From: Anaerolineae bacterium
GTDB lineage: Bacteria; Chloroflexota; Anaerolineae; JAAEKA01
Reading direction: 5' to 3'
DNA: 64,000 nucleotides
Assembly: GCA_049294015.1 (NCBI GenBank)
Contig: JBAQCH010000345.1
Span: forward strand, 4,279-68,278
Position numbers and translations under genes: made by a program. Below the pieces are notes generated by a model that saw only the letters and a program-made list of their open reading frames with translations, was not told the DNA's origin and made no database searches. Positions 29,441-47,447 of the stretch are shown here, one piece after another (position 1 is the first letter of the stretch; every line of letters starts with the position of its first letter).

Positions 29441-29461
29441 GGGTGGTCTCCTGTGCGGCTT

Positions 29462-33416: not shown

Positions 33417-33428
33417 TCCTCGTCTTGA

Positions 33429-33650: not shown

Positions 33651-33673
33651 CGGTTTCTCCGGTACTACGATGG

Positions 33674-34015: not shown

Positions 34016-34021
34016 CGTCTC

Positions 34022-34231: not shown

Positions 34232-34234
34232 GGT

Positions 34235-34612: not shown

Positions 34613-34699
34613 TGGGTACTCCTTATTGTCGTCTTGCCAGTCATGCGCCGTAGGCGCTACGTGGAGGATCAGCCAATCTCGCAGCCGAAGTCAGTGAAG

Positions 34700-35035
34700 C
34701 TACTTGGCGCCGAATGACTCGCCGTCGGTCGGATCGATGTCGCCCATCCAGTCATCGCCCAGATCGTCGAGATAGAGCAGATCACGTTGGGCTGCGACGC
34801 GTGCATCATCGAAGTGCTCGGAAGCCGTTGCCTCCCGCCGCCACGTCCAGGCCAGCGGTGGCTGCGCAGGGGCCACGACACCGATCAGCTCGAAGACCAT
34901 GAACCGATCGTTCTGTTTGCGGGCCAGCCACTCAGCCTCGGCCTTGGCCGCGTCCAAGCTGCCGTGCGTCACCGTCACCTGGGTTGGCAGCTTGTCCCGG
35001 CAGATGATGTACTGAGCTTGAAGTTGAGTAGACAT
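34700..35035 (-). CDS. Hypothetical protein
   Basis: Protein-like composition. Confidence 0.45.
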   Translation of the reverse strand: MSTQLQAQYIICRDKLPTQVTVTHGSLDAAKAEAEWLARKQNDRFMVFELIGVVAPAQPPLAWTWRREATASEHFDDARVAAQRDLLYLDDLGDDWMGDIDPTDGESFGAK

Positions 35036-35116
35036 TTGACGTTCCTTTCCGTTGTCGCTATCATAATGCGCCGCAGGCGCTACTGCTGGTCCGGAACCGG
35101 TTTCGGCAGGCTCAAC

Positions 35117-35818
35117 CTAAAGGTTCCGAGATTGCGCGCCGCAGGCGCTGCTGTGTTGAAACAAGATCACGCTTTCGTAGTCCACCCTGGCGTCGCGGTT
35201 CTGGCCAAAGCGCATGCCGGGACAGTCGATGTGAACATGCTCCAGCACCCGGAAGCCCAGGCCTTCCAGCGCCTCGATGTGCCAGTCTGTCACCGGCTGC
35301 ACGACGCCGCGGCGGATGTGATCCTTGATGTTCAAGACAAACAGCCCGCCTGGCTCCAGCACCCGCCGCGCTTCCGTCCAGGCCGCCAGATGAAACGACC
35401 TGTACTTCGGTCCCCAGGGCAAGGCGCCGCCGTTGTCCGGGTGCAGCTCGCGCGCCAGCTCGCTGGCGTAGGTCTTGCGCTTGTGCCGATCACGCAGCAA
35501 TTTATCACAGAGGCGATTCCCATATGGTGGGCTCGTAACCAGGGCGTCGAAGTAGCCATCGGGCCAGGGTAGATGCAGCGCGTTGCCCAGCGTGGTGCGC
35601 GGGTGCTGCTCTGCCCATTCGCGCTCGATCTCGACTCCGGACACCTCGGCGTCGGGCAGCCAGTGGTTGAGCAGGAACACCTTGCCGGTGCCGGCGAACG
35701 GATCGAGGATGCGCTGCCTGCCCTTGAGCATGCGCGCAAACGTGACCAGCAGGGCGTCGGTGTACTTGGCTGGGTGTTTTCGCTTCTCGGTGGGCAGGGC
35801 AAACAGTGCAGTGTCCAT
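35117..35818 (-). CDS. N6-adenine/N4-cytosine DNA methyltransferase (SPPY motif, motif I before IV)
   Basis: DPFAGTGKV is motif I. LVTSPPYGN is motif IV. Confidence 0.75.
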   Translation of the reverse strand: MDTALFALPTEKRKHPAKYTDALLVTFARMLKGRQRILDPFAGTGKVFLLNHWLPDAEVSGVEIEREWAEQHPRTTLGNALHLPWPDGYFDALVTSPPYGNRLCDKLLRDRHKRKTYASELARELHPDNGGALPWGPKYRSFHLAAWTEARRVLEPGGLFVLNIKDHIRRGVVQPVTDWHIEALEGLGFRVLEHVHIDCPGMRFGQNRDARVDYESVILFQHSSACGAQSRNL

Positions 35819-35822
35819 GGGC

Positions 35823-38120
35823 TCAGTTCCCTCGGAACCGGTTCCGCAGCATGTCGCCCAGGAAGGTGACGCGGCGCACGCGCTCCTCGTTCTGGACGTA
35901 GGTCTGCAAGGCCGACTGAGCCGAGATCAGCACACAGTAGGTCTTGGCCCTGGTCAGCCCGGTGTAGGCCAGCTGGCGCAGCATGAAGTCAGGGCGGGTG
36001 GTGGGAAGGGCCAGCACCACGTGGCCATGCTCGCTGCCTTGGCTTTTGTGGACGGACAGCGCATAAGCCAGCTTGAGATAGCCCAGGTCCTCGCGCGTGT
36101 AGGTGGTGACGTCCGGCTCGCCGTCGAACTGCACGTCGAGTACCGGTGGCAGCTCGTCGTCGCCCTCTTCCCTGCGCCGGATATCCATTCCGCGCTCTTC
36201 CTCGTCGCTGGCCACCCACTGCACCATGCCCACCATGCCGTTGAGCACAGTCTGGCCGCGAAGATCGTAGACGTTTCGGGTGTGGATCACCTTGTCGCCC
36301 GGCTTGAAGGGACAGCCCTTGAGCGGGAACGGCCCAGGGTTGTAGCGCTCCTGCAGGCGCAGGTTGAGCGCGTGCTGGCCCCAGGGATGGTTGTTCAAGG
36401 GTGTCAGCACCTGGATGTCGTGGATGGACAAGCCGCAAGCGATAAGATCGCTTACCCACCGCAAGAGATGTGTGGGCAATGATGCATTGCTGCTTGCATA
36501 CTCGATCTCGATGTCGTCGTAGCCCGACAGATCAGGCACCAGGCCGCGGTTGAAGCTGTGGGCCGCCACGATGATGCCGGAATGCTTGCCCTGGCGGTGG
36601 ATGACTGTGAGGCGCGCGACAGGTACCACACCGCTGTGGATCAGCTGGAAGAAGGGTTCGCCCGCGCCCACCGGCGGCAGCTGATCCACGTCGCCCACGA
36701 AGATCAGCCGCGTTCGGTCGTTGCACGCCTTGACGATCCGGCGCATGAGGGCCGCATCGATCATCGAGGCTTCGTCGATGGTCACTGCATCAGTCTGGAA
36801 GCTGTACCTGGCCTCTTCATCGCCGAAGATGCCCAGGGTGCGGTGGATGGTGGCGGCCGGCAGCCCGGTGGCCTCGGTCATGCGCCGCGCAGCCTTGCCG
36901 GTGGGCGCGCACAACGTCAAGCTCAGGCCATGCGCCTGCATGATGTTGCAGATGGTGCGCAACACTGTCGTCTTGCCCACGCCGGGCGCGCCGGTGATCA
37001 CCACCAGCCGATGGGCCAGCGCCAGCCGCACCGCCTCTACCTGATCGGGCGAGAGGGCGAAGTCGCTGTATTCGTCCAGGCAGCGGCGAATGGTTTCCCA
37101 GTCGCCCACCGCCGCGCCAGGGTTCTGAAGCATCCGCGCGATGCCGGCCGCAGTCTCTTCCTCGATCTCGAAGTAGGGTGCCAGGTACAGCCACTCGCCT
37201 TGTAAGAGCAGGTAGTCGTCCTCGTAGCGCGCCCGCACCTTCTGCTCGAAGCCGTCCAGGCGGGGCCTGGCCAGCTGGCGCGCGCGCTGAAGGGCATCGG
37301 TCTCAGCCAGCGCCATGTGCCCTTGGGTGTAGGCCTCGCGCAGCACCTCCCGCACAGCCGCGCCATAGCGCCGCGCGTCGTCGTGATCGATCTTTGCCTT
37401 GCCCGGCCAGGCCAGCGCCGCGATCTCGTCCGCGCGCTGCCAGGTGACGCCATTGATCACTGTGAGCAGGTAAGGGTTGTCGTTGATGATCTGCACCAGC
37501 CGCTCGCCGAAGCGCTGGTAGGCTTCCCTGGCCTGGCGCGTCGTCAGCCCCGCGCGCACCGAAGCAAGCGCGGCCTGCGCCCAGTGCCGCTGCGCTTTCC
37601 ACGACTCCACGATCCAGTAGCAGTTCTTGGGGCCGATGCCCGACACTACCCGCAGCTTGTTGGGATCGTCCAGCGCCTCGTCCAGCCGCGCGAAGGTTGC
37701 CGCACCGAAGGCCTGGGCGATGCGCTGGGCCATGGCGACCTTGACGCCCTTCAAGAAGCCGCTGGCCAGCAGCACTTGCAGGGCGCTGGCCTGGTCAGTG
37801 AGCATCACGCTGGACGCCTTGAACTGCCGGCCATAGTGCGGGTGATCCACCCACTGGCCGGCCACTGTTACCTGCGCGCCTGGGGCCAGGAACATGGCCG
37901 TACCCACCAGCGGGATCTCGCCCTTGCCGCGGCGCAGCGTGGCCACGAAGAAGCCGGTGGCGGGATCGCGGTAGCCGACCGCCACGATCTCGCCGGTGAT
38001 GACCGGCTCGTCGGGAAGGGCGTCGCTGGGCGCCGGGCCTGGCCCATAGCTCACCGTCCAGGTGGGCGCTGGCTCCAGCAGCTCCAGCAGGTTGTCTGGG
38101 TCGGGTGTGTAGAACATCAT
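35823..38120 (-). CDS. RecD/RecD2-like SF1 DNA helicase
   Basis: Walker A VITGAPGVGKTTV. IDEASMID. FVGDVDQLPPVGAG. LTRAK near the C-terminus. The last codons, RNRFRGN, are encoded by a GGAACCGGTTCC palindrome. Confidence 0.8.
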   Translation of the reverse strand: MMFYTPDPDNLLELLEPAPTWTVSYGPGPAPSDALPDEPVITGEIVAVGYRDPATGFFVATLRRGKGEIPLVGTAMFLAPGAQVTVAGQWVDHPHYGRQFKASSVMLTDQASALQVLLASGFLKGVKVAMAQRIAQAFGAATFARLDEALDDPNKLRVVSGIGPKNCYWIVESWKAQRHWAQAALASVRAGLTTRQAREAYQRFGERLVQIINDNPYLLTVINGVTWQRADEIAALAWPGKAKIDHDDARRYGAAVREVLREAYTQGHMALAETDALQRARQLARPRLDGFEQKVRARYEDDYLLLQGEWLYLAPYFEIEEETAAGIARMLQNPGAAVGDWETIRRCLDEYSDFALSPDQVEAVRLALAHRLVVITGAPGVGKTTVLRTICNIMQAHGLSLTLCAPTGKAARRMTEATGLPAATIHRTLGIFGDEEARYSFQTDAVTIDEASMIDAALMRRIVKACNDRTRLIFVGDVDQLPPVGAGEPFFQLIHSGVVPVARLTVIHRQGKHSGIIVAAHSFNRGLVPDLSGYDDIEIEYASSNASLPTHLLRWVSDLIACGLSIHDIQVLTPLNNHPWGQHALNLRLQERYNPGPFPLKGCPFKPGDKVIHTRNVYDLRGQTVLNGMVGMVQWVASDEEERGMDIRRREEGDDELPPVLDVQFDGEPDVTTYTREDLGYLKLAYALSVHKSQGSEHGHVVLALPTTRPDFMLRQLAYTGLTRAKTYCVLISAQSALQTYVQNEERVRRVTFLGDMLRNRFRGN

Positions 38121-39313
38121 GAGATTACCACGTTCTCCCAGCCGCGCGGCACATATTTGCGCTTCAGGGCCTCGTAGCTGTCTGGGTCTTCCTCTTCCGG
38201 AACGGGCGGAGGTTGCTCGTGGGCGCGTAGCCGCTTGACCAGGTAGCCCACCGGGCGCGCCATGTCCTGGGTGGCCAGGTACGCGATCCAGCCGTCAACC
38301 ATCGCCCGGTCGACGCCGTTGCGGGACAGCTCGGATAGCGCGGGCTCCGCAACGCCGAATTCCCTTAGGGCCTGATAGACATCCGGTTTCACAGTTCCCT
38401 TGGCAGCAGGAGAAGCGCGGGGATCGGGCTGCACGCGCGTGCGCGAAGAAGTGCCCGGCAGCGCCTTGCCCAACCCACTGCTCCTGGGATCGGGCTGCCC
38501 GCGCGCGCGCGAAGAAGTGCTGCTGCTGCTGTTTTTCACAGAAGAATCTTGATTCTTAGATTCTCTGCCATTACTTCTCTGAGCAGCAGAAGCAGCAGAC
38601 GCGCGCGCGACGCGCGCGCGCGTTGGCGGCGCGTTGGCGGCATCACTGTCGCCGTTGCGCTGTTTCGTGACATCCGCGCCGGAGTCGTTGTCAGCGTTGC
38701 GCTGTTTCGTGACATCCGCGCCGGAGTCGTTGTCACCATTTCGTTGTTTCGTGACATCCGCGCCGGAGTCATTGTCAGCGTTGCGCTGTTTCGTGACATC
38801 CTTGCCGGCATCACTGTCAGCGTTTCGCTGTTTTGTGACATCCTTGCCGGCATCGTTGTCGCTTGAATCCGCTATGATGCCGGGATCGGCCGGTGTGACT
38901 GGGGCAGCGGCAGGCGCCAATCCAGTCAGAGCGTCATCGACGCGGATCAGCCCTTTAGCGGTTCGCTCATAACCAGGAGGTGGAGCAAACATGCTGGGCG
39001 TTTCGCGTGCGTAACGACTGATCAGCTCTTGATTCTTGAAGAACAATACCGGCTGATCGCTGTCGGGGTCGTGATAAAGGACAACCAGATCGGCGGCAAC
39101 CCACTCCTGGATCAGGTCGGCCATAATGTTTACCAGATCGGAGGCGCACAAGGGTGCTACCTGTGCCATTAGCAGCAGAGGCTCGCCAAGAATCAGCCTA
39201 TCTCTGTCCAGGTGGGGGATGGTCATCATGTAGACCGCCTTAGCCTGCCAGGAGAGGCGGTTCAGGGCTTTGTCGGTGGTTATGGTCTTGCTCAAGAATC
39301 GTCCAGTGGTCAT
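38117..39313 (-). CDS. Phage-module protein with five 14-aa tandem repeats (ADVTKQRN[AG]DNDSG) and a Ser-rich region, possibly an origin/DNA-binding factor
   Basis: Five 42-bp tandem repeats, a ~60-bp duplicated Ser/Arg segment, and an alternating (CG)n tract. Structured N- and C-terminal domains. Confidence 0.55.
   Translation of the reverse strand: MTTGRFLSKTITTDKALNRLSWQAKAVYMMTIPHLDRDRLILGEPLLLMAQVAPLCASDLVNIMADLIQEWVAADLVVLYHDPDSDQPVLFFKNQELISRYARETPSMFAPPPGYERTAKGLIRVDDALTGLAPAAAPVTPADPGIIADSSDNDAGKDVTKQRNADSDAGKDVTKQRNADNDSGADVTKQRNGDNDSGADVTKQRNADNDSGADVTKQRNGDSDAANAPPTRARVARASAASAAQRSNGRESKNQDSSVKNSSSSTSSRARGQPDPRSSGLGKALPGTSSRTRVQPDPRASPAAKGTVKPDVYQALREFGVAEPALSELSRNGVDRAMVDGWIAYLATQDMARPVGYLVKRLRAHEQPPPVPEEEDPDSYEALKRKYVPRGWENVVIS
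38648..38857. repeat. Five tandem 42-bp repeats inside gene 38117..39313
   Basis: gtc[ga]c[cg][ga]tt[gt]cg[ct]tgttt[ct]gtgacatcc[gt][ct]gccgg[ac][ga]tc[ga][ct]t, five times. Confidence 0.7.
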
Positions 39314-39434
39314 GCAGCACCTCAGAACCAGAGGCCGTCATCACTGGGCGTGACGGGGCCGCAGATATCGGTTGTGATCCAGTCAAGCAAGGCGGTGATC
39401 AGTCGTCGCACGGGTGTTCGCCTCTGGTCGCTTG

Positions 39435-39815
39435 TCATGAGTCGACCTCCAGCAAGCACCCTCCGAGCCAGTTGATGTCGTCAGTGATGGCACTCAGAGT
39501 GCGCATGACCTGATCAACCCACAAGTAGGCGGATGACTTCAGGGTGTTGCGGATGTACTCTCGTTCATCGCGGCGCCCGAGTTGCCGTGCCGATTCAAGT
39601 TGCTCGTGAAATCTCCCGGCCAGATAGGTCAGGTCGCACGAATGGCCATTGACTGTAATCGCGACAGCATCAATCTCACAGATGTCTTCATCGATGCTTG
39701 GCGCGTCTTTGGCCAACATGACAACCACCAGCCACTGTTCCAGCTTGCTCAAGTCGTCGAAGGGGCGTCCATTGATGGTTGTCATGGTGTTCTCCTCGTA
39801 CGCCGATTCGCCCAC
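39435..39815 (-). CDS. Hypothetical protein
   Basis: Protein-like composition. Confidence 0.4.
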   Translation of the reverse strand: MGESAYEENTMTTINGRPFDDLSKLEQWLVVVMLAKDAPSIDEDICEIDAVAITVNGHSCDLTYLAGRFHEQLESARQLGRRDEREYIRNTLKSSAYLWVDQVMRTLSAITDDINWLGGCLLEVDS

Positions 39816-39952: not shown

Positions 39953-40180
39953 TCAGCGCTCCGCAAAGGAGAAGGTGTCGCGCGCGCGGAAGGCACACAG
40001 ACAGGTGGTGCAGGTCACGCTGGCGACAAAGGCGTTCAGCCCGGCCCGAATAGCCGTGGGCCGCAGCGCTGCGCCGCAGAAGGGACAGGAGGGCAGTTCC
40101 ATGGCCATCAGCTCCTCCGAGCTGACGTTGTCCAGGATGAACAGCCGCTCCTTACCTGTAGGCGTGATCGCGTCGCTCAT
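39953..40180 (-). CDS. Zinc-ribbon small protein
   Basis: CPFCGA…CTTCLC. Confidence 0.35.
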   Translation of the reverse strand: MSDAITPTGKERLFILDNVSSEELMAMELPSCPFCGAALRPTAIRAGLNAFVASVTCTTCLCAFRARDTFSFAER

Positions 40181-40523
40181 GGAGCAGCTCCCGGGCCAGC
40201 CCTACCTGCCGGTCCATGTCCGCCGCGGCCTGGCTGCGGGCGATGTCCATGTCAGGGCGTAGGGCCTCCCAGGCCGCGACCAGGGCGCGCAGCCGCCCTG
40301 CCGTCTGGTTCGCAGCCTCCGGCAGGCGGATGCCGCGCGCCACGCCGGGATCGCGCTGGATGGCGCCCGCTTCAGCCAGGCGGACGAGATCCCTGGTCAG
40401 CGTATGCAAGGCGCACAGGCCCAGGGCATGGATGTCTCGCACGCTGGGCGCATAGCCTTTGCTGGCGATGTGCTGTTCGATAAAGGCCAGGATGGCCTGC
40501 TGTCGGTCGTTCAGGTCTAGCAT
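40152..40523 (-). CDS. LexA-like winged-HTH DNA-binding domain protein lacking the S24 peptidase domain, i.e. a non-cleavable LexA paralogue
   Basis: MLDLNDRQQAILAFIEQHIASKGYAPSVRDIHALGLCALHTLTRDLVRLAEAGAIQRDPGVARGIRL aligns to the LexA N-terminal domain. The real start is ATG 40523, overlapping the upstream stop. No Ser-Lys dyad region. Confidence 0.6.
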   Translation of the reverse strand: MLDLNDRQQAILAFIEQHIASKGYAPSVRDIHALGLCALHTLTRDLVRLAEAGAIQRDPGVARGIRLPEAANQTAGRLRALVAAWEALRPDMDIARSQAAADMDRQVGLARELLHERRDHAYR

Positions 40524-41506
40524 CAAATGGTCTCCTCGACGATCTGCGCCAGGTAGGTTGAGATGATCTCCTGCATGCCTTTGCCTTCTTTGAGCAAGGT
40601 GCGGATGCGCTGGATGATCTCGCGGAAGTAGGCGAAGTCCACGCCGGTGAGCTGTTCTTCCCAGACGCGCGGGTCGTCCCAGTCCAGTCTGGCCAGCTGC
40701 AAGCTCAGCACCAGCAGGTGGCCCGCGTGAGGCCGGGTGAAGCCGCGCTGCACGAACTTGAAGGCGCGCAACAGCGCGGCCAGCGGATACTGCGAACCCA
40801 CGTAGCGCAGCTCGCGCGCCAGCAGGCATTCCAGGGCCTCGGTGTTGGTCACCAGCCCATCCTGGAAAGTCCAGTAGTTGGTGACGTGCGCCCAGTCGAA
40901 GCTCTTGTGGATCTCGGCCGGGTCGCCACTGAAGCGCAGGATCACCTGCACCGGTGGCAGCTTGCGGTTCTCGCGCGCCAGGGTGATGGCGTTGCCGGAC
41001 AGGGCCACCGGCCAGTAGTCCTTGTCCTTGCCGTAGTCCGAGCGCCGGTCGACGCCGAAGATCACCTGGGCATACTCGGCGGCCCGCTCGGGATCGCTGT
41101 CGGTGAAGGCTTCGAAGTAGTGATACTGCGCGTCGCCTGAGTGCTCGGTGAGGACGCCGGCGCTCTTCACCATCACCGCCACGTGGTCGCCGCGCGCTAC
41201 CACCTGCACCTGGCTCAGGATCGGATTGCCTTCCAGGGTGGCAGGCGGCGCGGCGATGAACTGGCGCACGTAGTGCTCGGCGATCCGCCTGGCTGTGGCG
41301 CTGTCGCGGAAGTAGACGTCCCAGTCGTTGACCGCCTCGCCCAGGAACAGGTTGGCGATCGCACCGCCGGTCAGGATCAGGTCGTCGGTGACGGACTGTT
41401 GCAGATCCTGAGGCAGGGATGCTACCCAGCCTTCCATGGCCTTGCGGCAGACGCGTTCGATGGTCTTGGTCTTCATGTTTGGTTCTCCTTGGCTGAAGTT
41501 TGCCAA
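40523..41506 (-). CDS. Polymerase-beta-fold nucleotidyltransferase-like protein
   Basis: LTGGAIANLFLGEAVNDWDVYF follows the NTase signature G[GS]x9-13DxD. It is translationally coupled to the LexA-like gene. Confidence 0.45.
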   Translation of the reverse strand: MANFSQGEPNMKTKTIERVCRKAMEGWVASLPQDLQQSVTDDLILTGGAIANLFLGEAVNDWDVYFRDSATARRIAEHYVRQFIAAPPATLEGNPILSQVQVVARGDHVAVMVKSAGVLTEHSGDAQYHYFEAFTDSDPERAAEYAQVIFGVDRRSDYGKDKDYWPVALSGNAITLARENRKLPPVQVILRFSGDPAEIHKSFDWAHVTNYWTFQDGLVTNTEALECLLARELRYVGSQYPLAALLRAFKFVQRGFTRPHAGHLLVLSLQLARLDWDDPRVWEEQLTGVDFAYFREIIQRIRTLLKEGKGMQEIISTYLAQIVEETI

Positions 41507-41532
41507 GGATGCGCCCGCCAGGGCGCTACACT

Positions 41533-41594
41533 GGGAACCGGTTCCGGTGTGGCGCGCGGAACCCTTGGGTTGAGCCTGTCGAAACCGGTTCCGG
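41533..41594. repeat. GGGAACCGGTTCCG palindrome plus an inverted copy of the ~40-nt composite hairpin element
   Basis: ctgGGAACCGGTTCCGgtgtggcgcgCGGAACCCTTGGGTTGAGCCTGTCGAAACCGGTTCCGG. Confidence 0.5.
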
Positions 41595-41596
41595 CG

Positions 41597-41788
41597 CTAG
41601 CCCTCGTCGCCTTCGAAGGGCGACTCATCGGTAATGCCCAGCAGCCACTCGATGCCGATGCGCACGCCCTGCTCGTAGGTCATGCCGGGGTACTGGGATC
41701 GGCCCTCGTCCTCGGCGTCGGCGCACCGGTTGAGCACGTCGTCGATCTCCGCTTCATCGCGGGCCATCTGATAGGTGTTACGGTACAT
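41597..41788 (-). CDS. Hypothetical small protein
   Basis: Protein-like composition. Confidence 0.35.
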   Translation of the reverse strand: MYRNTYQMARDEAEIDDVLNRCADAEDEGRSQYPGMTYEQGVRIGIEWLLGITDESPFEGDEG

Positions 41789-41849
41789 GGGAGTTCTCCT
41801 TTCAGGGATCAGACTGGATCGAAGCCTTCGATGGTGATCAGAGGCGCGC

Positions 41850-42503
41850 TCATGCGTGCCCTTCCGCAGCAGGCTGCACCAGCGAGGCCAGCTCAGGCGG
41901 GATTTCGAGCGCGTGCCGGCTGCCGGTCAGCATGCCTACGATCACGGCCAGCTCGATGGCGCCGAGCAGCGGGTCCGGGTCTTCCAGCAGCAGGCTGGGA
42001 TACATGGCTACCAGACTGAGCGCGATCGCAGCCTGCACACTTCTCAGCTGCTCTTCCCGGATGATGGGCGCGAACAGGCTCTTGTGGTAGGCCGAGGCGA
42101 CCGATCCGAGCACAATCACTCGCACCTGGCCTTCCCCCAGCCTGGCTGCTCCTTCCTTGAGCACGTCGGCGATGGGTTTGTCGGGCATGGGAGACTTCCT
42201 TTCGGGTGGGATTAGGATGGACTTGTCATCCGTGGATCGCAGGCGCCGATTTGGCGCATCGAGAACAACTGGCAGCGTTGCTTGCAGGTCAGGGTTGCAT
42301 TCGTAGCAGCAGCCTGAATGGCACGCTGGATGGCACAGGTTGTGCGTCCGAGGGTATCGATCTGCGCGGCCGAGACCCAGACGGATGAGCTCTGCCAGAC
42401 AGTCGGGTGTGAGACAGCGATGGTAGTCGAAGCCCCACATGGGCTCGCCACAGACGAAGCAGGGCGTCCCTTCGAGTTCCTTGAGTGTCAGTTCCTCAAA
42501 CAC
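41850..42503 (-). CDS. Hypothetical protein with an N-terminal Cys-rich zinc-finger. Start is ambiguous: GTG 42503 with an AAGGTAAGGA RBS, or internal ATG 42188 with a GGAAG RBS.
   Basis: One open frame. CFVCGEPMWGFDYHRCLTPDC…CHPACHSGCCYEC. Confidence 0.4.
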   Translation of the reverse strand: MFEELTLKELEGTPCFVCGEPMWGFDYHRCLTPDCLAELIRLGLGRADRYPRTHNLCHPACHSGCCYECNPDLQATLPVVLDAPNRRLRSTDDKSILIPPERKSPMPDKPIADVLKEGAARLGEGQVRVIVLGSVASAYHKSLFAPIIREEQLRSVQAAIALSLVAMYPSLLLEDPDPLLGAIELAVIVGMLTGSRHALEIPPELASLVQPAAEGHA

Positions 42504-42541
42504 TTGGGCATCCTTACCTTTCGGAACCGGTTTCGACAGGC

Positions 42542-42811
42542 TCAACCTGAAGGTTCCGAAAACAACAGAGGCTGCACCCAGCCAGCCGGGTTTTTGTTGG
42601 GTGCTGCGGCTGCGGCCGAGCAGCGCCCGTAGCCGGGCACGACCTCCATCGCCAGCCGGTCCCGATCTGGGTGCGGCTGGCCGCCGTACGTGTCGTGGCC
42701 GCTGGGTCGCTTGCACGGCGTGCCAACGGCCGCGCGGCACACCGGGCACTCGACTTCCAGAGCAGGATCGCGCGGCCACTGCCGGCCGCAGAGAGAGCAC
42801 TTGATGGCCAT
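42542..42811 (-). CDS. Zinc-finger small protein whose C-terminus overlaps a composite hairpin element
   Basis: CSLCGRQW…CPVCRAAVGTPCK. Confidence 0.35.
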   Translation of the reverse strand: MAIKCSLCGRQWPRDPALEVECPVCRAAVGTPCKRPSGHDTYGGQPHPDRDRLAMEVVPGYGRCSAAAAAPNKNPAGWVQPLLFSEPSG

Positions 42812-42814
42812 GGC

Positions 42815-43050
42815 CTACGGCCGATACACCAGCCCGGCTTGGGCAAAGCTGGGAAAGAGCGCCACGGCCGCCTCCTCGGGCAGCTTGTCGCCGCTGGCGA
42901 GGACCTCGTCGTCAGTCCAGTAGCTGAAGCCCTTGTAGGCTGCCCAGTCGTTGTCGAAGCCGCGCGTGGCGCAGACCTTGATCAGTACCGCATCGCCCGG
43001 CCCTAACAGGCCCGGTCCCTCGCGGTAGTAGGCAGAGTAGGGAATGATCA
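42815..43050 (-). CDS. Hypothetical small protein (GTG start)
   Basis: GTGA overlap with the upstream stop. Confidence 0.35.
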
Positions 43051-43221
43051 CGCCGCGTCCTCCTTGATCTTCAGGCAGACGGTGCAGCGCCAGCCCGGCT
43101 TGGGCTTGCGCATCGCGTTGTGGACCCGCATGTTCTGGCCATAGCGCTCGTCCTGGAAGGCGTGCTGGCAGGTGCAGCGCATGACGCGCGTGTTGGGAGT
43201 GGATGTCTTCTCTTTGGGCAT
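43047..43221 (-). CDS. 57-aa zinc-ribbon protein, below the ORF-track cutoff
   Basis: Hand translation gives MPKEKTSTPNTRVMRCTCQHAFQDERYGQNMRVHNAMRKPKPGWRCTVCLKIKEDAA. Confidence 0.4.
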
Positions 43222-43236
43222 GGGTCGCCTTCCTTC

Positions 43237-44262
43237 CTACACGCTGAACCTGCTGGCAAGCTCGCCGGGGTCGTCCAGAGGGATGCCCTTTTCCACCAGC
43301 ATCCTGTCCTCGGCCGGGTCCAACCAGATCACCAGCCAGGGATCGCCGAACTTCGAGTAGGCGCGCCTGGCTCGCTCGTATACCAGCTCCGGCGGATGGA
43401 TCACCACCTTGCCTGGCTCAATGCGCCGCTCGCGCGCCACGCCGATGGGCGCCAGGGCCAGGATCGCTTGTTCCTTGTTGATGCCGGTTGTACGGAGGAT
43501 TGCATCCACCGCGGCCGCATAGTCGGCCGGGTCTGCGCCGGCGTCAGCCCAGCGCTGGCTGCTGACGGCCACCGCGCGCACCAGCTTGGTGCTCCAGCCG
43601 TCGATCTCGTCCAAGGTGAACCTGTCCCTCAGCATCGGCCAGGACACCAGCCAGAAGACTGCGCAGGTGCGGATGAAGCGAAACTCCCAAGTGTCCCGGC
43701 TGGGCCTCACGCCTTCGGGCCAGGCGTCCAGCACCATCTCCCGGATCTCTCGCGCCCGCATTTCCCAGCTGTCCTGATCGGACTGGTTGGCCAGGTTGCG
43801 CAGCACCAAGAGACGCACGCTGCGGAAGATGGTGACCATCAAGAGCTCGTCCACCACCAGGCGGCTGGCGATGGCGACCTCCAGCCCGCGGGTGGTCAGC
43901 CGTCGCTCCCATTCATGTCTTGCCAGCAGTCCCAGCGGTTCTTCGAGGGCAAGGCCGCACTGGGAACACATCGTCTGTCCCGGCTCGATCAGCTCGCCGC
44001 AGGCAGCACAGACCGCGGCCGCGCCCTGGCAGTAGAAGGCGTAGAAGAAGGCCGGCTGCGCCTGGATGGCTCGCTCGATGGCCGCGTCGTCAGCTGTCTC
44101 GTGCAGTCCCAGCAAGGCCAGCGCGCGCCGCCGGCAGTGGCCGTGCCGGCCGCGCTCAGGGCTGAGGAAGCAGTTCTCTGTGATCAGGCCCAGGGTGGCG
44201 ATGGTCGCCGTCTGCTGGCGCATGTCTTGCACCGAGCCGGACAGGATGATGTCACGCGTCAC
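43237..44262 (-). CDS. Hypothetical phage-module protein
   Basis: Normal composition. The + strand ORF 43120..44541 is antisense. Confidence 0.5.
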   Translation of the reverse strand: MTRDIILSGSVQDMRQQTATIATLGLITENCFLSPERGRHGHCRRRALALLGLHETADDAAIERAIQAQPAFFYAFYCQGAAAVCAACGELIEPGQTMCSQCGLALEEPLGLLARHEWERRLTTRGLEVAIASRLVVDELLMVTIFRSVRLLVLRNLANQSDQDSWEMRAREIREMVLDAWPEGVRPSRDTWEFRFIRTCAVFWLVSWPMLRDRFTLDEIDGWSTKLVRAVAVSSQRWADAGADPADYAAAVDAILRTTGINKEQAILALAPIGVARERRIEPGKVVIHPPELVYERARRAYSKFGDPWLVIWLDPAEDRMLVEKGIPLDDPGELASRFSV

Positions 44263-44674
44263 GAGGCATGTACCTTTCCAGCAGTTTGTCTCTGGTGCGC
44301 AAGGGAATGTCAGGGTCTTCTTTCAACAGCCGGGCGATGCGCTCAGGCGTCGGTTGTGGCAGCCAGCCCAGCCGGGCCAGTTCCTCGCTCAGGTCCGCCT
44401 GCAGCAGCCAAGACTCGACGAAGGCCAGTTCGGCGCGCGGCAGCTCGTCGAAGGAACGCACTCGCCGTCGATAGCCCTCGCCGTCGGAAAGGGCATAGCC
44501 GGCCAGGTCCAGCCGCGCGGCCCGGACGAGCCGGCCCTTGAAACCGGCCAGGTCGCTGGTTGGCATAAGGCGCTTGATGCGCTCGTCGATGCGATCTATG
44601 GCCACGCTCAGTTCCTCAGCTTCCGGGAAGGTGAACCATCCGTGCTGCGCACGCAGGTCGTTCAGGCTCTTCAT
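44252..44674 (-). CDS. Hypothetical protein
   Basis: Overlaps the next gene by 11 nt. Confidence 0.45.
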   Translation of the reverse strand: MKSLNDLRAQHGWFTFPEAEELSVAIDRIDERIKRLMPTSDLAGFKGRLVRAARLDLAGYALSDGEGYRRRVRSFDELPRAELAFVESWLLQADLSEELARLGWLPQPTPERIARLLKEDPDIPLRTRDKLLERYMPRDA

Positions 44675-44731
44675 GGCAATGGGTGCGAGTCGAATTCTGA
44701 CAGAAGCTCATCCGGAACCCGGTTCCGCGAT

Positions 44732-45994
44732 CTAGCGCGCGGCGTAGCTGACGATCACCCTCGCAGCCACCTGGGCCACTGCGTCCACGTGCGCGGCCGT
44801 GGCGTCGTCCGTGCCATACTCGACGTGCGCCGCCTCGTGCAGCCAGGTGGCGACAGCATCCTTGAGGTCGTCCAGCACCGAGATGTCCAGCGCAATGCGG
44901 CCTTCCAGCGCCTGGCCCAGGATGCTGGGCGGCAGCATGTAGGGCTGCACCTCATGCTGGATGCCGGCCCGCTGCGACAGCCGCCGCACCAGGTCCAGCA
45001 CCCGGCGCTGCGCCGCGCTCAGCCGGCTCTTGGGATAGAGGGTGGACGCCCGGCCGGACAGCGCAGCCAGCTCCTCGCGGTCGGTGCCGATGATCTCCTT
45101 GGCTGTCTCTTCCAGGCCCCATTGCAGATGCACAGGCTTCAGGCCGCGGTACTCGGCCTCGCGCTGCGTCACCGCGTCGGTAGCCACCACCGCGCGGCTG
45201 CCAAAGGCCTGGCGCAGGGCCGCGGCCTGGGCCTTGGGCGCCTGCACGTCACGGAAGGCCATGTGGGTGTCCGCCTCAGCCTGCCGGTCGGCCACGGCCT
45301 GCCAGAAGCGGGCGAGCAGCTCTTGGTTCGCGACGTTGGCCCACAGCCGGCCGATCTCGCGGCTGGCCTGCCAGGCGTCGGCCAGCTGGCGGTCCTCGGC
45401 CAGCTTGAGGTTGAGGTTGTAGCCGAAGGCGCAGGACGTTCCGTAGGGCCGCGCGGGGCCGATCCAGAGGCCCTTGACGTAGAACTGCGGCTCAGCCTCC
45501 TCCAGGATCATGCGGCCGGCCTCGTCGGTGAACAGCACGCGCTCATCTCCCGGCCGGATCACGCGCTCCTGCCACAGCTCGCCCGCGTAGGCCAGCTCGT
45601 AGCGAGAGCCGTCGAAGAACGCGCCCTCGTCCCAACACACCTCCATCACCTGCTGGCCGTACAGGTCAGCCCAGCGCGCGTGCAGGCCGTGGAACTCGCC
45701 CGAGGTGAGGCTGAAAGGCACACCCTCGCGCAAGAGCACCAGCCAGCCCAGCTTGGTGCCCTCGCCGAACTGGCCGCGCTGCTGTTCGGTCTTGTCTGAG
45801 CCGCCCAAGAGCAGGTGGCGCAGGGCCATGTGCGCGCCGCGGCCTTCGATGACCGTCTTGCCATCGGCCTGTTCGACGGTCCAGGTTTGGAACAAGTCGA
45901 GGAACTCCTGCCAGATGCATTCCCGGAAGGCGTCCCACAACTGCCACTGGGCGCGGTAGTCGCGCGTGATTGGGTAGATGATGCTCGGCATAGT
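44732..45994 (-). CDS. Hypothetical protein carrying a HEAAH (HExxH-like) motif near the C-terminus
   Basis: Start MPSIIYP with a GAGGAGG RBS. WLHEAAHVEYGTDDATAAH. Confidence 0.5.
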   Translation of the reverse strand, partial: TMPSIIYPITRDYRAQWQLWDAFRECIWQEFLDLFQTWTVEQADGKTVIEGRGAHMALRHLLLGGSDKTEQQRGQFGEGTKLGWLVLLREGVPFSLTSGEFHGLHARWADLYGQQVMEVCWDEGAFFDGSRYELAYAGELWQERVIRPGDERVLFTDEAGRMILEEAEPQFYVKGLWIGPARPYGTSCAFGYNLNLKLAEDRQLADAWQASREIGRLWANVANQELLARFWQAVADRQAEADTHMAFRDVQAPKAQAAALRQAFGSRAVVATDAVTQREAEYRGLKPVHLQWGLEETAKEIIGTDREELAALSGRASTLYPKSRLSAAQRRVLDLVRRLSQRAGIQHEVQPYMLPPSILGQALEGRIALDISVLDDLKDAVATWLHEAAHVEYGTDDATAAHVDAVAQVAARVIVSYAAR

Positions 45995-46150
45995 GCAAAC
46001 CTCCTCAGTCAGATTTGGCTCGCACTGCGCCTTCGGCGCTACGTGGCAGGTCATGGCTAGGTGTGCAGGCAACATCAGAGCGTAGGGCAGGTGTTGGACA
46101 GGCGCGGCTGCGCCGATTTGCAGAAATAGAACGTTTGGGCTATAACAGGT

Positions 46151-46381
46151 TCATCTGCTTTTCGCCTTGCCAGCGGGCGGCGGCTGGTCTTGCTGATCAG
46201 ACAGCAGCTCAACCGCCGCCTCCGGAAAGGCCTCTGAAAACTTGGCCCAAAAAGTGCCGGACACATGCTCGCGGGCCAGCGCTCGGCTCACCGAGGTGCG
46301 CAGGTAGCCGATCCGATTTGCCACCACTTGCTGCGTCAGATGGTGGGTGACGATCCACTGTTTGATCCGGGCGCTTCGCAT
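46151..46381 (-). CDS. Cro-like XRE-family HTH regulator, first gene of the leftward operon
   Basis: HLTQQVVANRIGYLRTSVSRAL is the HTH. AAGGAG RBS. It is divergent from the cI-like gene. Confidence 0.6.
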   Translation of the reverse strand: MRSARIKQWIVTHHLTQQVVANRIGYLRTSVSRALAREHVSGTFWAKFSEAFPEAAVELLSDQQDQPPPAGKAKSR

Positions 46382-46411
46382 ATAGGCTCCTTAGCAGAGG
46401 TCAGATTTCTT

Positions 46412-46425
46412 AGAACGCATGTTCT
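46412..46425. promoter_or_regulatory. Candidate LexA (Cheo-type GAAC-N4-GTTC) SOS box AGAACGCATGTTCT within the leftward early promoter
   Basis: Inverted repeat AGAAC-GCAT-GTTCT. It sits between the -10 and the RBS of the cro-like gene. Confidence 0.45.
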
Positions 46426-46432
46426 GTTGAAA

Positions 46433-46461
46433 ACTATATCATGGCTGAATCTGTCCGTCAA
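46433..46461 (-). promoter_or_regulatory. Leftward sigma70-like promoter TTGACG-17 nt-TATAGT for the cro-like/early operon
   Basis: On the minus strand, TTGACGgacagattcagccatgaTATAGT is followed 7 nt later by the SOS-like box. Confidence 0.45.
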
Positions 46462-46561
46462 TACCCCCTGTCGCGCAACTGAAACATATTGGTCAACCAA
46501 TTTTTCGGCGTAGAACTGAAATAGATTTGAAGACGAGATTCGGGCTGATCGCCTGCGCCTG

Positions 46562-47056
46562 TTGATGAAGGAAAAGCGCCTTTTCACCGCTGGACTGTTG
46601 GCCCTGCTGCGCTGCACGGATGGCAATGAACGCGTTAACCGGCCTACCCTATCCAAGTTGGTCAACGGCAGCTACGGCGCTACGCCCTCGGTTAACGTGG
46701 TGCGCGGCCTGGCGCAGGCCCTGAACGCCACGGCAGACTACCTGCTAGGGCTATCCGACGAGCCACAGCCTGGCGCGATGGCCTTCCTCCGTCGCTATGG
46801 GCTGGCCGACGAGGAACAACTGCTGAGCTTGCTGGCGGAGCGCAACGCGGAGATGGCTAAGATCATGCGCGCCGTCCGTGACATCCCCGATGAGGAACAG
46901 GAAGTGATCTTGCAGCATCTTATGAACGATCTTCTCTTCATTCGGCACATGGCGGCCGAGCGCGCGGCGGCACAAGCCAACAGTGGCGCCAACCGCCGAG
47001 ACCCGCCTGCCAACAGCCCACTATACCTATCTTGGGATACCGACGATGACCACTGA
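46562..47056 (+). CDS. cI-like XRE-family HTH regulator without an S24 peptidase domain
   Basis: LSKLVNGSYGATPSVNVVRGLAQALNATADYLLGLSD is the HTH. No Ser/Lys peptidase region. Confidence 0.55.
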   Translation: MMKEKRLFTAGLLALLRCTDGNERVNRPTLSKLVNGSYGATPSVNVVRGLAQALNATADYLLGLSDEPQPGAMAFLRRYGLADEEQLLSLLAERNAEMAKIMRAVRDIPDEEQEVILQHLMNDLLFIRHMAAERAAAQANSGANRRDPPANSPLYLSWDTDDDH

Positions 47057-47447
47057 AACACCTGATACTCCTGGCAGCCGGCTGCGCAAGGCGCGCGAGC
47101 GCCTGGGATTGCAGCAGATCGAACTGGGCAGGAAGCTGGGCGTGTCCGGCTCCTACATCTCCCGCATCGAACGCGACGTGGTGAAGATCCAGCCTATGGT
47201 GCTGCGCCTGGCCGAGGCGCTGGACGTGAGCGTGGACTACCTGTTGGTCTTACGCGACACACCGCAGCGCGACGCCACAGGGACTGCGCTCTACGAGTCC
47301 ACCCAGGACGAGCTGGTGGCCATACGCCTTCTGCGCATGGTCATCGACGGGCTGCCGCCGGAAGATCGCGTGCGGCTGATCCACTACCTGATCAAGCAGG
47401 CTGGCATCTACAAAGAAACCTTCCAAGCGACGCGCGACAGAGACTGA
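47046..47447 (+). CDS. XRE-family HTH regulator
   Basis: LRKARERLGLQQIELGRKLGVSGSYISRIERDVVKIQPMVLRLAEALDVSVDYLL. Start taken at MTTETP. Confidence 0.55.
   Translation: MTTETPDTPGSRLRKARERLGLQQIELGRKLGVSGSYISRIERDVVKIQPMVLRLAEALDVSVDYLLVLRDTPQRDATGTALYESTQDELVAIRLLRMVIDGLPPEDRVRLIHYLIKQAGIYKETFQATRDRD

What the first reader, a model, noticed from the sequence alone, without database searches (positions are those of the whole stretch)
40152..46461. Non-cleavable LexA-DBD paralogue plus a Cheo-type SOS box on the early promoter: candidate SOS wiring of the element
The leftward promoter (TTGACG-17-TATAGT, 46433-46461) that drives the entire ~20-kb minus-strand operon is followed 7 nt downstream by AGAACGCATGTTCT. 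This fits the GAAC-N4-GTTC LexA box used by Gram-positive and Chloroflexi LexA. The divergent cI-like repressor lacks an S24 autopeptidase domain. The same operon also encodes a 123-aa protein that is clearly the LexA N-terminal winged-HTH domain with the cleavage domain deleted. This suggests that element induction depends on host LexA and the SOS response. The element's LexA-DBD-only protein could act as an uncleavable surrogate repressor or a competitor.
Basis: partly seen in the sequence, partly recalled or inferred. Interest (0 to 1): 0.65.

Follow-up and report, generated by a model that had tools for sequence, protein, structure and literature searches.

The report
Host LexA box gating mobile element
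An integrated mobile element in an Anaerolineae (Chloroflexota) chromosome has a consensus-quality binding site for the host DNA-damage repressor LexA at the start of its 20-kb early operon and also encodes a small LexA-derived DNA-binding protein; the site is well supported, but the same arrangement is already known from Bacillus phage GIL01, so it is an ordinary case in a new phylum.

Summary
The only sigma-70-like promoter of the minus-strand gene array (TTGACG-17-TATAGT, extended -10) is followed 7 nt later by AGAACATGCGTTCT. The 40152..40523 protein matches Pfam LexA_DNA_bind over the whole profile (E 1.4e-14).

The key test passed. In 78 Anaerolineae/Chloroflexota lexA upstream regions, GAAC-N4-GTTC is the top dyad (72 of 78 versus 0 of 78 controls). 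The window site scores above 59% of those operators, and 0 of 300 shuffles of the 64 kb reach its score. The arms are kept just after a -10 element in two diverged lineages whose other non-coding sequence is only 34-54% identical.

The interpretation needs correcting on three points.
- The 123-aa protein is not a recently truncated host LexA. It belongs to a small family with its own C-terminal helix.
- Every base-reading position of its recognition helix differs from the near-invariant host LexA helix, so a surrogate or competitor role is unlikely. A GIL01 gp6-like regulator with its own target is more likely.
- It is accessory. A sister lineage keeps the LexA box and lacks the gene.

The element has no virion genes and here only an integrase remnant. 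Verdict: new member of a known kind (GIL01, CTXphi).

The parts
46456..46461 (-). -35 hexamer TTGACG of the leftward early promoter
   Evidence: Sequence. Only sigma-70-like site in 46000-47600, 10 of 12 matches. Invariant in 7 near-identical copies and in L098.
46433..46438 (-). -10 hexamer TATAGT, preceded by TG (extended -10)
   Evidence: TATA is invariant in all three diverged lineages.
46412..46425 (.). Predicted host LexA operator AGAACATGCGTTCT (plus strand AGAACGCATGTTCT), 7 nt downstream of the -10 and therefore over the expected transcription start
   Evidence: Scores 24.4 bits on a matrix built from Anaerolineae lexA operators, above 59% of them. 0 of 300 shuffles reach its score. 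The core GAACGCATGTTC is identical to lexA operators in L028, L038, L042, L045, L050, L051, L054 and L055. The arms are invariant in three lineages while the spacer is free.
46151..46381 (-). First gene of the operon: 76-aa Cro-like HTH protein, with RBS AAGGAG at 46387..46392
   Evidence: ORF and RBS. The identical protein is indexed in 58 blocks of the assembly collection. Only a weak Pfam HTH match. Its role is inferred from position.
46128..46144 (.). Degenerate LexA-like box with a TATAGC motif just after the Cro-like gene (minus strand TATAGCCCAAACGTTCT)
   Evidence: One perfect half-site plus flank. Conserved as TATAGCTCA(T/C)ATGTTCT in L098 and L101. Function unknown.
46477..46541 (.). 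Candidate operators for the element's own regulators: direct repeats AACTGAAA-A-ATT (46477-46490 and 46514-46527), palindrome TTGGT-N2-ACCAA (46489-46500), and one arm of an inverted repeat at 46527-46541 (the other arm, 46447-46461, overlaps the -35)
   Evidence: These are lineage-specific, unlike the LexA box. Assignment to the XRE, 163-aa or Cro-like protein is inferred.
46565..47056 (+). Divergent 163-aa gene (weak HTH_3 match, no S24 domain)
   Evidence: Pfam; phrog_8; conserved partner in all copies.
47046..47447 (+). 133-aa XRE/CI-like HTH repressor candidate without an S24 domain, overlapping the 163-aa gene by 11 nt
   Evidence: HTH_3 E 5.5e-13 and a sub-threshold Phage_CI_repr match (21.8 bits against a cutoff of 22), no Peptidase_S24. 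PHROG transcriptional regulator and repressor families. Start codon.
44732..45991 (-). 419-aa protein of unknown function (phrog_6077), second gene of the operon. Used to find diverged relatives.
40523..41476 (-). 317-aa gene upstream of the LexA-DBD gene; homologues carry a precomputed Pfam Gad2 (PF26128) hit. Its stop overlaps the next start (TGATG).
   Evidence: precomputed Pfam; phrog_4400, E 1.6e-47; overlap. My own Pfam scan found no hit.
40152..40523 (-). 123-aa LexA-DBD-family protein: LexA-type winged HTH (residues 1-64) plus a roughly 55-residue C-terminal helix with a conserved W-x-x-LRP motif. No S24 domain.
   Evidence: PF01726 E 1.4e-14. PDB hits below E = 0.01 are all LexA. Short family. 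Diverged recognition helix. C-terminal long helix at pLDDT 73-83 in an otherwise low-confidence model. Synteny kept at 43% identity.
39953..40180 (-). 75-aa gene overlapping the 3' end of the LexA-DBD gene; a constant neighbour of that gene
26329..39815 (-). Distal part of the same-strand array: 126-aa and 398-aa proteins, RecD2-like helicase (35823..38120), N6/N4 methylase (35117..35818), 536-aa phrog_1735 protein (31549..33159), C5 methylase (29462..31177), DnaB-AAA fusion helicase (26329..28527)
   Evidence: Pfam and PHROGs. No minus-strand promoter-like site and fewer terminator-like sites than in shuffles.

Best explanation
The window holds an integrated mobile element of about 21-25 kb in an Anaerolineae (Chloroflexota) chromosome. 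It carries replication, DNA-modification and probably anti-defence genes.

Proposed mechanism:
- Its roughly 20-kb early operon is read from one strong sigma-70 promoter, and a consensus-grade host LexA operator sits on the transcription start.
- In undamaged cells, dimeric host LexA bound at 46412-46425 blocks transcription. The element's own non-cleavable XRE/163-aa regulators probably act as well, at separate lineage-specific operators around the -35 and the divergent promoter.
- DNA damage activates RecA and LexA cleaves itself, so the block is lifted.
- The operon is then expressed. The Cro-like protein is made first and presumably shuts off the divergent repressor genes, followed by the helicases, methylases and the rest.
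- The 123-aa protein is a LexA-family winged-HTH protein made only after this derepression. It probably dimerises through its own C-terminal helix and, having a different recognition helix, binds a different DNA site. It would then act as a secondary regulator of the adjacent replication module or of later functions, as gp6 does in Bacillus phage GIL01. It is an accessory part of the circuit.

Shown computationally: the motif type of the host clade, the quality and position of the site, its conservation, domain membership, and recognition-helix divergence.

Inferred: LexA binding, repression, operon extent, and the roles of the Cro-like, XRE and 123-aa proteins.
For: 1. Host clade: the nearest homologue and two carrier assemblies are 'Anaerolineae bacterium' MAGs.
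2. Unbiased dyad scan of 78 Anaerolineae/Chloroflexota lexA upstream regions: GAAC-N4-GTTC is present in 72 and in 0 of 78 controls. It is the top of all 4-mer dyads at spacings 0-12, with consensus (T/C)AGAAC-GNAT-GTTC(G/T)T.
3. The window site scores 24.4 bits, above 59% of the training operators. 0 of 300 dinucleotide-preserving shuffles reach its score. Across 358 kb of related loci, sites above 13 bits occur only at this promoter of each copy.
4. Position: 7 nt after the -10 of the only promoter-like site.
5. Footprint: L098 has TTGACG-17-TATATT-G-GAACAGACGTTC. L101 has TTGCGC-17-TATACT-7 nt-AGAACGCATGTTCT. All 8 arm positions are invariant, the spacer is free, and the rest of the intergenic region is 34-54% identical, with 23% of columns invariant.
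6. The regulators lack S24.
7. The 123-aa protein is a LexA_DNA_bind member. It belongs to a distinct short family, has a diverged recognition helix, and keeps its synteny with the 75-aa, 45-aa and replication genes.
8. Precedent: GIL01 P1 is repressed by host LexA, and its early gene gp6 is a truncated LexA homologue with a different palindromic target that activates the late promoter (PMC6182141).
Against: - No experiment: LexA binding, the transcription start and SOS inducibility are all unmeasured.
- The lexA promoter of the exact host genome was not retrieved. The motif is established for the clade only.
- The recognition helix of the Cro-like protein (LR[TS]SVSRAL) is conserved across the three lineages. 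Conservation of the box could therefore also reflect binding by that protein.
- The L098 site scores lower (9.1 bits) because of its flanks and spacer.
- Relative L100 (57% identity, rearranged) has no box.
- No target site for the 123-aa protein was identified. The recurrent GGAACC(N0-1)GGTTCC palindromes also occur in L098, which lacks the gene.
- The structure model is low-confidence at mean pLDDT 66.
- With no virion genes and only an integrase remnant here, what derepression achieves is unclear.
Confidence: 0.7

Rival explanations
1. The palindrome is the operator of one of the element's own regulators (the 76-aa Cro-like protein autoregulating, or the XRE/163-aa repressor), and its likeness to the LexA box is incidental or mimicry. 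Host LexA and the SOS response would then play no role, or only a secondary one.
For: The palindrome sits at the start of the Cro-like gene's own promoter. The putative recognition helix of the Cro-like protein is nearly the same in the three lineages that keep the box. The element has its own divergent HTH regulators.
Against: The site matches the host-clade LexA matrix including flanks, better than most real lexA operators. Its variation pattern (invariant GAAC/GTTC arms, free spacer) is that of LexA sites. It is a single site, whereas other lineage-specific repeats in the same region are better candidates for the element's own operators. XRE and 163-aa identity falls to 38% between lineages that share the identical 14-mer.
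Confidence: 0.12
2. One reading: the 123-aa LexA-DBD protein binds the same GAAC-N4-GTTC boxes as host LexA. It would act as an uncleavable surrogate repressor of the element or as a competitor on host SOS boxes.
For: It is a LexA N-terminal-domain homologue. The wing motif ARGIRL resembles SRGIRL of LexA. It lacks the cleavage domain.
Against: All base-reading positions of helix 3 differ from the nearly invariant host LexA helix, and they vary within the short family. The gene lies 6 kb into the operon that the box controls, so it is not made while the box is occupied. That suits a downstream regulator and not a maintenance repressor. Lineage L098/L099 keeps the box without the gene. The GIL01 homologue evolved a different target.
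Confidence: 0.1
3. The 123-aa protein is not a transcription regulator. It is a DNA-binding accessory of the replication module, for example an origin-binding or initiator-loading factor.
For: Constant linkage, down to 43% identity, with an overlapping 74-75-aa gene, a roughly 45-aa gene and a large HTH_36-type protein, followed by a RecD2-like helicase. The gene is optional in a lineage that has a different downstream replication set (DUF5131 in L098).
Against: No origin-like iterons were found next to it. Characterised LexA_DNA_bind proteins are transcription factors. Position alone does not separate the two roles.
Confidence: 0.2
4. The box is a chance occurrence with no function.
For: A bare GAAC-N4-GTTC is expected 0.54 times per 64 kb.
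Against: 0 of 300 shuffles reach the matrix score. The box sits exactly at the only promoter and is retained in diverged lineages.
Confidence: 0.02

Closest known systems
Bacillus thuringiensis tectivirus GIL01: LexA(+gp7)-repressed early promoter P1, plus gp6, a truncated LexA homologue (PMC6182141)
   Same: A host LexA box of the GAAC-N4-GTTC type sits on the promoter of the early or replication operon. An early gene encodes a LexA DNA-binding-domain homologue without the cleavage domain. In GIL01 that homologue has its own DNA specificity, as predicted here from helix 3.
   Different: GIL01 is a 15-kb linear, non-integrating virus of Firmicutes with no CI/Cro-type switch, and it needs gp7 as LexA co-repressor. 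The element here is integrated, lacks virion genes, has divergent XRE/Cro-like regulators, and is found in Chloroflexota. Its LexA-like protein carries an extra roughly 55-residue C-terminal helix and is accessory. No gp6-type target or late promoter was found. No gp7 homologue was looked for, and sequence relatedness to gp6 was not tested.
Vibrio cholerae CTXphi: host LexA together with the non-cleavable phage repressor RstR at the divergent rstA/rstR promoters (as summarised in PMC3121763)
   Same: A non-cleavable element repressor and host LexA act at the same divergent control region, so that SOS sensing is delegated to LexA.
   Different: CTXphi is a filamentous phage, uses the gammaproteobacterial LexA motif, and has no LexA-DBD paralogue. 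LexA there also activates rstR. No such effect can be judged here.
LexA-controlled antirepressor modules (coliphage 186 Tum, N15 AntC, Salmonella Gifsy GfoA/GftA; PMC3121763)
   Same: Prophages whose repressor is not RecA-cleavable obtain SOS inducibility through a LexA box.
   Different: In those phages the LexA box controls a separate small antirepressor operon outside the immunity region. Here the box is on the main early promoter itself. No antirepressor has been identified, although one among the unknown early genes is not excluded.
Canonical LexA (PF01726 + PF00717) of Anaerolineae
   Same: Homologous winged-HTH N-terminal domain (about 35-45% identity over some 65-70 residues).
   Different: No S24 peptidase domain and no cleavage site. 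The recognition helix is different. There is a distinct C-terminal helix. The nearest relatives are short proteins confined to this element family.

Membership tests
Cheo-type LexA operator (SOS box) of Chloroflexota | Matches the motif bound by LexA in this clade (GAAC-N4-GTTC dyad) | tested here: met
   The motif was derived de novo from 78 Anaerolineae/Chloroflexota lexA promoters (72 of 78 versus 0 of 78 controls). The window site is an exact match. The literature agrees for Chloroflexi (PMC4951493).
Cheo-type LexA operator (SOS box) of Chloroflexota | Site quality comparable with bona fide operators, flanks included | tested here: met
   24.4 bits, above 59% of the training operators. 0 of 300 shuffles of the 64 kb reach its score.
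Cheo-type LexA operator (SOS box) of Chloroflexota | Overlaps promoter elements or the transcription start, so that binding represses | tested here: inconclusive
   It lies 7 nt downstream of the only consensus-like -10. The promoter and start site are predicted, not mapped.
Cheo-type LexA operator (SOS box) of Chloroflexota | Conserved at orthologous promoters of diverged relatives | tested here: met
   All 8 arm positions (GAAC/GTTC) are invariant in three lineages, with a free spacer and 34-54% identity elsewhere.
Cheo-type LexA operator (SOS box) of Chloroflexota | Bound by LexA, with the gene induced by DNA damage | not testable with these tools
   Needs EMSA or footprinting and mitomycin C or UV transcript measurements.
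LexA repressor (PF01726 + PF00717) | N-terminal LexA-type winged HTH | tested here: met
   PF01726 E 1.4e-14 over the full profile. PDB hits below E = 0.01 are all LexA.
LexA repressor (PF01726 + PF00717) | C-terminal S24 autopeptidase domain with a cleavage site | tested here: not met
   No Peptidase_S24 hit. The protein ends at residue 123 with a helical tail.
LexA repressor (PF01726 + PF00717) | Recognition helix of the host-clade LexA (ISSTSVV[NS]YxL) | tested here: not met
   The element protein has LCALHTLTRDL at that position.
GIL01 gp6-type truncated LexA homologue | LexA DNA-binding-domain homologue without the cleavage domain, encoded by a mobile element | tested here: met
   Phage families of such short proteins exist: phrog_362, phrog_3502 and phrog_24920.
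GIL01 gp6-type truncated LexA homologue | Encoded in an early operon that host LexA represses | tested here: inconclusive
   Same-strand array downstream of the boxed promoter, with no other promoter-like site. Co-transcription is not shown.
GIL01 gp6-type truncated LexA homologue | Binds its own palindrome at a late promoter and activates it | tested here: inconclusive
   No late promoter or specific target was found. The recurrent GGAACC(N0-1)GGTTCC palindromes do not depend on the gene.
GIL01 gp6-type truncated LexA homologue | Sequence orthology to gp6 | not tested
The extra C-terminal helix argues for an independent derivation.
Temperate prophage | Virion and lysis genes | tested here: not met
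   None in the window. An intact copy has AIPR/DUF4420/Z1/HATPase/Vsr defence genes beyond DnaB.
Temperate prophage | Integrase and attachment-site repeats | tested here: not met
   The window has only a 43-aa integrase remnant at 50506-50634 and no flanking direct repeat of 15 nt or more. Other copies have tyrosine recombinases.
Lambda-CI-type SOS-cleavable repressor | HTH domain fused to an S24 autopeptidase domain | tested here: not met
   The XRE and 163-aa proteins have HTH matches only.

The most novel reading that the evidence does not exclude
The 123-aa protein defines a new LexA-derived regulator class: a LexA wing-helix domain fused to its own dimerisation helix. It would work as an SOS-timed second-tier switch in a virion-less replicative island of Chloroflexota. 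It might read the element-wide GGAACC(N0-1)GGTTCC palindromes, which are GAAC/GTTC dyads with a shortened spacer, at gene junctions. DNA damage would then trigger a programmed burst of helicases, orphan methylases and anti-defence proteins from a non-viral element.
Probability: 0.12. Interest if true: 0.55.

Novelty: new member of a known kind. Interest (0 to 1): 0.35.

Why it matters
The result gives a concrete, testable case of SOS/LexA control of a mobile element in Chloroflexota. No such case was found for this phylum in the held literature. The element family is common in activated-sludge and environmental Anaerolineae; the identical 76-aa protein is indexed in 58 blocks of the assembly collection.

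A by-product is an LexA operator matrix for Anaerolineae built from 49 distinct sites, which can be used to map the SOS regulon of the clade. The work also shows that pairing a LexA box with a truncated LexA homologue, so far described only for Bacillus tectiviruses, has arisen in an unrelated element.

The principle is not new. Delegating damage sensing to host LexA is well known from GIL01, CTXphi, phage 186, N15 and the Gifsy phages.

Tried and rejected
- **Counting bare GAAC-N4-GTTC in the window.** Not significant. Replaced by a matrix from real operators.
- **Seven copies found through the identical 76-aa protein.** The regulatory region is 98% identical, so they say nothing about selection.
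- **IMG/VR scan with the 419-aa protein.** Nothing found.
- **IMG/VR scan with the 536-aa protein.** Nine contigs, but they share only that gene, so they are not relatives of the element.
- **Exact-sequence look-ups of the 447-aa ORF and of DnaB.** Not on record.
- **Cluster look-up for organism names of LexA-like hits.** No names returned.
- **Reading Fernandez de Henestrosa et al. 2002 (PMC135389).** Not held, so it is cited only through PMC4951493.
- **Search for a target of the 123-aa protein.** Perfect palindromes in the intercistronic gaps gave the GGAACC(N0-1)GGTTCC family. It also occurs in L098/L099, which lack the gene, has no Rfam match, and folds inconsistently. It is left unexplained.
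- **AlphaFold model of the 123-aa protein.** It was too poor for a fold search, so none was run.
- **Covariation of box and regulators as a discriminator.** Inconclusive, because the Cro-like recognition helix is conserved.
- **Attachment-site repeats flanking the element.** None of 15 nt or more.

Full report
**1. The observation**

On the minus strand the window reads TTGACG (46461..46456), 17 nt, TATAGT (46438..46433, preceded by TG), TTTCAAC, AGAACATGCGTTCT (46425..46412), then AAGGAG (46392..46387) and the ATG of a 76-aa HTH ORF at 46151..46381.
- The consensus scanner finds this as the only sigma-70-like site in 46000-47600: 10 of 12 positions, extended -10, 0.3 expected.
- It finds no minus-strand promoter-like site in 25000-44999.
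- From 46381 to 26329 all credible genes are on the minus strand with short gaps. One long operon is plausible but unproven.
- The 40152..40523 product matches Pfam LexA_DNA_bind across the full profile (E 1.4e-14) and has no S24 domain. Its PDB sequence hits below E = 0.01 are all LexA repressors.
- The two divergent genes, 46565..47056 (163 aa) and 47046..47447 (XRE), have HTH matches and no S24 domain.

**2. Is the palindrome more than chance?**

As a bare pattern, no: one match against 0.54 expected. The real question is which motif the host's LexA uses.

The nearest homologues of the element's proteins come from 'Anaerolineae bacterium' assemblies. I aligned Chloroflexi-looking full-length LexA proteins. 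I then spent the one genome-collection scan on that alignment and obtained 80 lexA loci, nearly all labelled Anaerolineae, Thermoflexia, Chloroflexia or Chloroflexota.
- An unbiased scan tested all 4-mer dyads at spacings 0-12 over -250..+30. GAAC-N4-GTTC came first: 72 of 78 upstream regions against 0 of 78 size-matched controls. The runner-up reached 24.
- The consensus is (T/C)AGAAC-GNAT-GTTC(G/T)T. The window site, TAGAACGCATGTTCTG on the plus strand, has the same 12-bp core as the lexA operators of eight of these genomes.
- On a matrix from the 49 distinct operators, scored against the window's base composition, it reaches 24.4 bits. That is above 59% of the operators themselves.
- Scored against a uniform background it reaches 22.1 bits, the next best site in the window is 11.0, and 0 of 300 dinucleotide-preserving shuffles of the 64 kb reach it (largest 20.7).
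- The literature agrees that Chloroflexi use a form of the Gram-positive motif (PMC4951493, citing the Dehalococcoides study).

**3. Conservation**

The identical 76-aa protein is indexed in 58 blocks of the assembly collection, and six loci were read. All share the same core gene order in different chromosomal contexts, but their control region is 98% identical and so uninformative. Through the 419-aa protein I found diverged relatives.
- L098/L099 (73% identity) read TTGACG-17-TATATT-G-GAACAGACGTTC.
- L101/L102 (68% identity) read TTGCGC-17-TATACT-CTGCATC-AGAACGCATGTTCT, the same 7-nt offset as the window, followed by a second extended -10.
- Across the three lineages all eight arm positions and the 3' T are invariant and the four spacer positions all vary. 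Only 23% of the other intergenic columns are invariant, with pairwise identity of 34-54%. That is the variation pattern of LexA sites.
- In 358 kb of related loci, sites above 13 bits occur only at this promoter.
- One caveat: the putative recognition helix of the Cro-like protein is also conserved. Binding by that protein cannot be excluded on conservation grounds alone.

**4. The 123-aa protein**

An exhaustive HMMER search of 1.84 billion representatives gave 973 hits.
- The best hits are proteins of 116-145 aa aligned end to end (39-51% identity), sharing the C-terminal W-x-x-LRP helix. True LexA proteins (200-220 aa with S24) appear only at E about 1e-6 to 1e-7.
- A profile of the short family recovers about nine clusters before scores fall to canonical LexA.
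- It is therefore a separate small family, not a fresh truncation of host LexA.
- Aligned with 20 Anaerolineae LexA N-terminal domains, the host recognition helix is nearly invariant (ISSTSVV[N/S]YxL). The element protein has LCALHTLTRDL, and the other family members differ again. The helix numbering uses E. coli and B. subtilis LexA sequences written from memory.
- A different DNA specificity is thus the likely reading, and it argues against the surrogate or competitor idea.
- The gene is translationally coupled to the upstream gene (TGATG) and overlaps a 75-aa gene downstream. This micro-synteny (LexA-DBD, 74-75 aa, about 45 aa, large replication-type protein) holds at 43% identity.
- L098/L099 lack the gene but keep the LexA box, so the gene is accessory.
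- PHROGs already contains families of short LexA-like phage proteins: phrog_362 'transcriptional repressor', phrog_3502 and phrog_24920.
- The AlphaFold model is poor (mean pLDDT 66). Its only usable feature is a single long C-terminal helix at pLDDT 73-83.

**5. What the element is**

The operon encodes:
- the Cro-like protein and several proteins of unknown function;
- a Phage_zn_bind_8 protein;
- a protein whose homologues carry a Gad2 annotation;
- the LexA-DBD protein;
- a RecD2-like helicase, N6/N4 and C5 methylases, a phrog_1735 protein and a DnaB-AAA fusion.

No virion genes occur in the window. In an intact copy on a 293-kb contig, the 10 kb beyond DnaB encode an AIPR/DUF4420/Z1/HATPase/Vsr defence cluster. 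Other copies have tyrosine recombinases near the repressor side. The window has only a 43-aa remnant and no flanking repeats. It is best described as an integrated replicative element, satellite-like or island-like, and this copy is possibly immobilised.

**6. Mechanism**

The best-supported reading has these steps.
- Host LexA bound over the transcription start blocks the early promoter.
- The element's non-cleavable XRE/163-aa regulators act at separate, lineage-specific sites. Candidates are the direct repeats at 46477-46527, TTGGT-N2-ACCAA at 46489-46500, and the inverted repeat overlapping the -35.
- SOS-triggered LexA autocleavage releases the operon.
- The Cro-like protein then presumably silences the divergent genes.
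- The 123-aa protein, made only after derepression, acts at its own unidentified site on the replication module or on later functions.

This mirrors GIL01. There LexA represses P1, and the early protein gp6, a truncated LexA homologue with its own palindromic target, activates the late promoter (PMC6182141). It also resembles CTXphi, where LexA and the non-cleavable RstR share a control region, and the LexA-controlled antirepressor systems (PMC3121763). LexA binding, repression, operon extent and all protein roles are inferred.

**7. Novelty and verdict**

No paper in the held library describes LexA control of a mobile element in Chloroflexota. GIL01 remains the only described pairing of a LexA box with a truncated LexA homologue. 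The principle is established, so this is a new member of a known kind. The LexA operator is well supported computationally (confidence about 0.7 for the overall model) and the interest is modest (0.35).

Noticed in passing
window 47468, 44714, 42523, 41581, 41534, 35834, 35093, 31195, 28505, 26307 (and 4215 outside the element): The palindrome GGAACC(N0-1)GGTTCC recurs at gene junctions of the element. At one mismatch or fewer there are 6 copies against 0.06 expected. Four copies are embedded in a roughly 40-nt composite repeat, CGGAACC-TTNAGG-TTGAGCCTGYCGRAACCGGTTCCG. It also occurs in L003-L008 and L098/L099, has no Rfam match, and folds inconsistently between copies. Function unknown.
   Followed up: partly
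window 46027-46039, 35136-35148, 35068-35080, 34645-34657, 28548-28560: The hairpin or palindrome GCGCC-N3-GGCGC recurs five times upstream of genes in the operon. The copy ahead of the 419-aa gene keeps its stem while the loop varies in L098 and L101.
   Followed up: partly
window 46128-46144: Just after the Cro-like gene there is a conserved TATAGC...GTTCT element. It is a degenerate LexA box with one perfect half-site, and it is kept in L098 and L101. It could be a low-affinity second LexA site or an internal promoter.
   Followed up: partly
L098 14855-16253, L099 5398-6796: A sister lineage of the element (73% identity in the 419-aa protein) lacks the LexA_DNA_bind gene between the Gad2-like gene and the 77-aa/45-aa/HTH_36 genes, yet keeps the LexA box at its early promoter.
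   Followed up: yes
L004 3650-3800: L004 carries a second, paralogous switch-like region. It shares the GTAGAACTGAAATAGATTTGAAG block with the window, then has TTGATT-17-TATACT and a one-mismatch LexA box (TAGCACGCATGTTCTG). It lies upstream of a 44-aa gene and a tyrosine integrase.
   Followed up: partly
window 4481-8113, 8909-11695, 19504-22812: An Hma defence system is present: HmaA helicase, HmaB adenine methylase and HmaC ATPase, all with PADLOC E-values of 0. HmaC is separated from HmaAB by about 7.8 kb that includes a TPR/HEAT/SH3 protein and an ABC sugar-transporter operon. HmaC also carries an N-terminal HEPN_Swt1 domain.
   Followed up: partly
window 38653-38860: There are five tandem copies of a 42-nt unit (89% matches) inside the 398-aa gene next to the RecD2-like helicase. 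They encode a repeated DVTKQRNxDxDxGx peptide. Homologues of this protein in other copies carry HTH_36, which my scan did not detect here.
   Followed up: partly
window 40523-41476: Homologues of the gene upstream of the LexA-DBD gene carry a precomputed Pfam Gad2 (PF26128) hit, while my own Pfam and PADLOC scans of the window protein found nothing. It matches phrog_4400 at E 1.6e-47.
   Followed up: partly
window 31549-33159; L089-L097: The 536-aa protein (phrog_1735, E 6e-116, unknown function) is 60-76% identical to genes on nine IMG/VR viral contigs that share nothing else with the element. It behaves as a freely exchanged cargo gene.
   Followed up: partly
window 47630-48582 and 50506-50634: Right of the control region lie a HigB(Gp49)/HigA(HTH_37) toxin-antitoxin pair and a DUF433 gene. 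Further right is a 43-aa remnant of a tyrosine integrase. Homology to other copies is mosaic between 47.5 and 51.1 kb.
   Followed up: partly
L105 and L106 (contig Ga0209573_1000067, 158440-180665 and 11647-33872): Two loci with the same 92% DnaB match and identical ORF coordinates, each at least 22 kb, lie on one 293-kb metagenome contig about 147 kb apart. Each covers the distal part of the element plus an AIPR/DUF4420/Z1/HATPase_c_3/Vsr defence cluster. This is either a real duplication or an assembly artefact.
   Followed up: no
L005 16702-16721: One copy of the element has a second exact GAAC-N4-GTTC (GAACGAATGTTC, 10.5 bits) in the gap upstream of a variant 299-aa gene in the replication region.
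   Followed up: no
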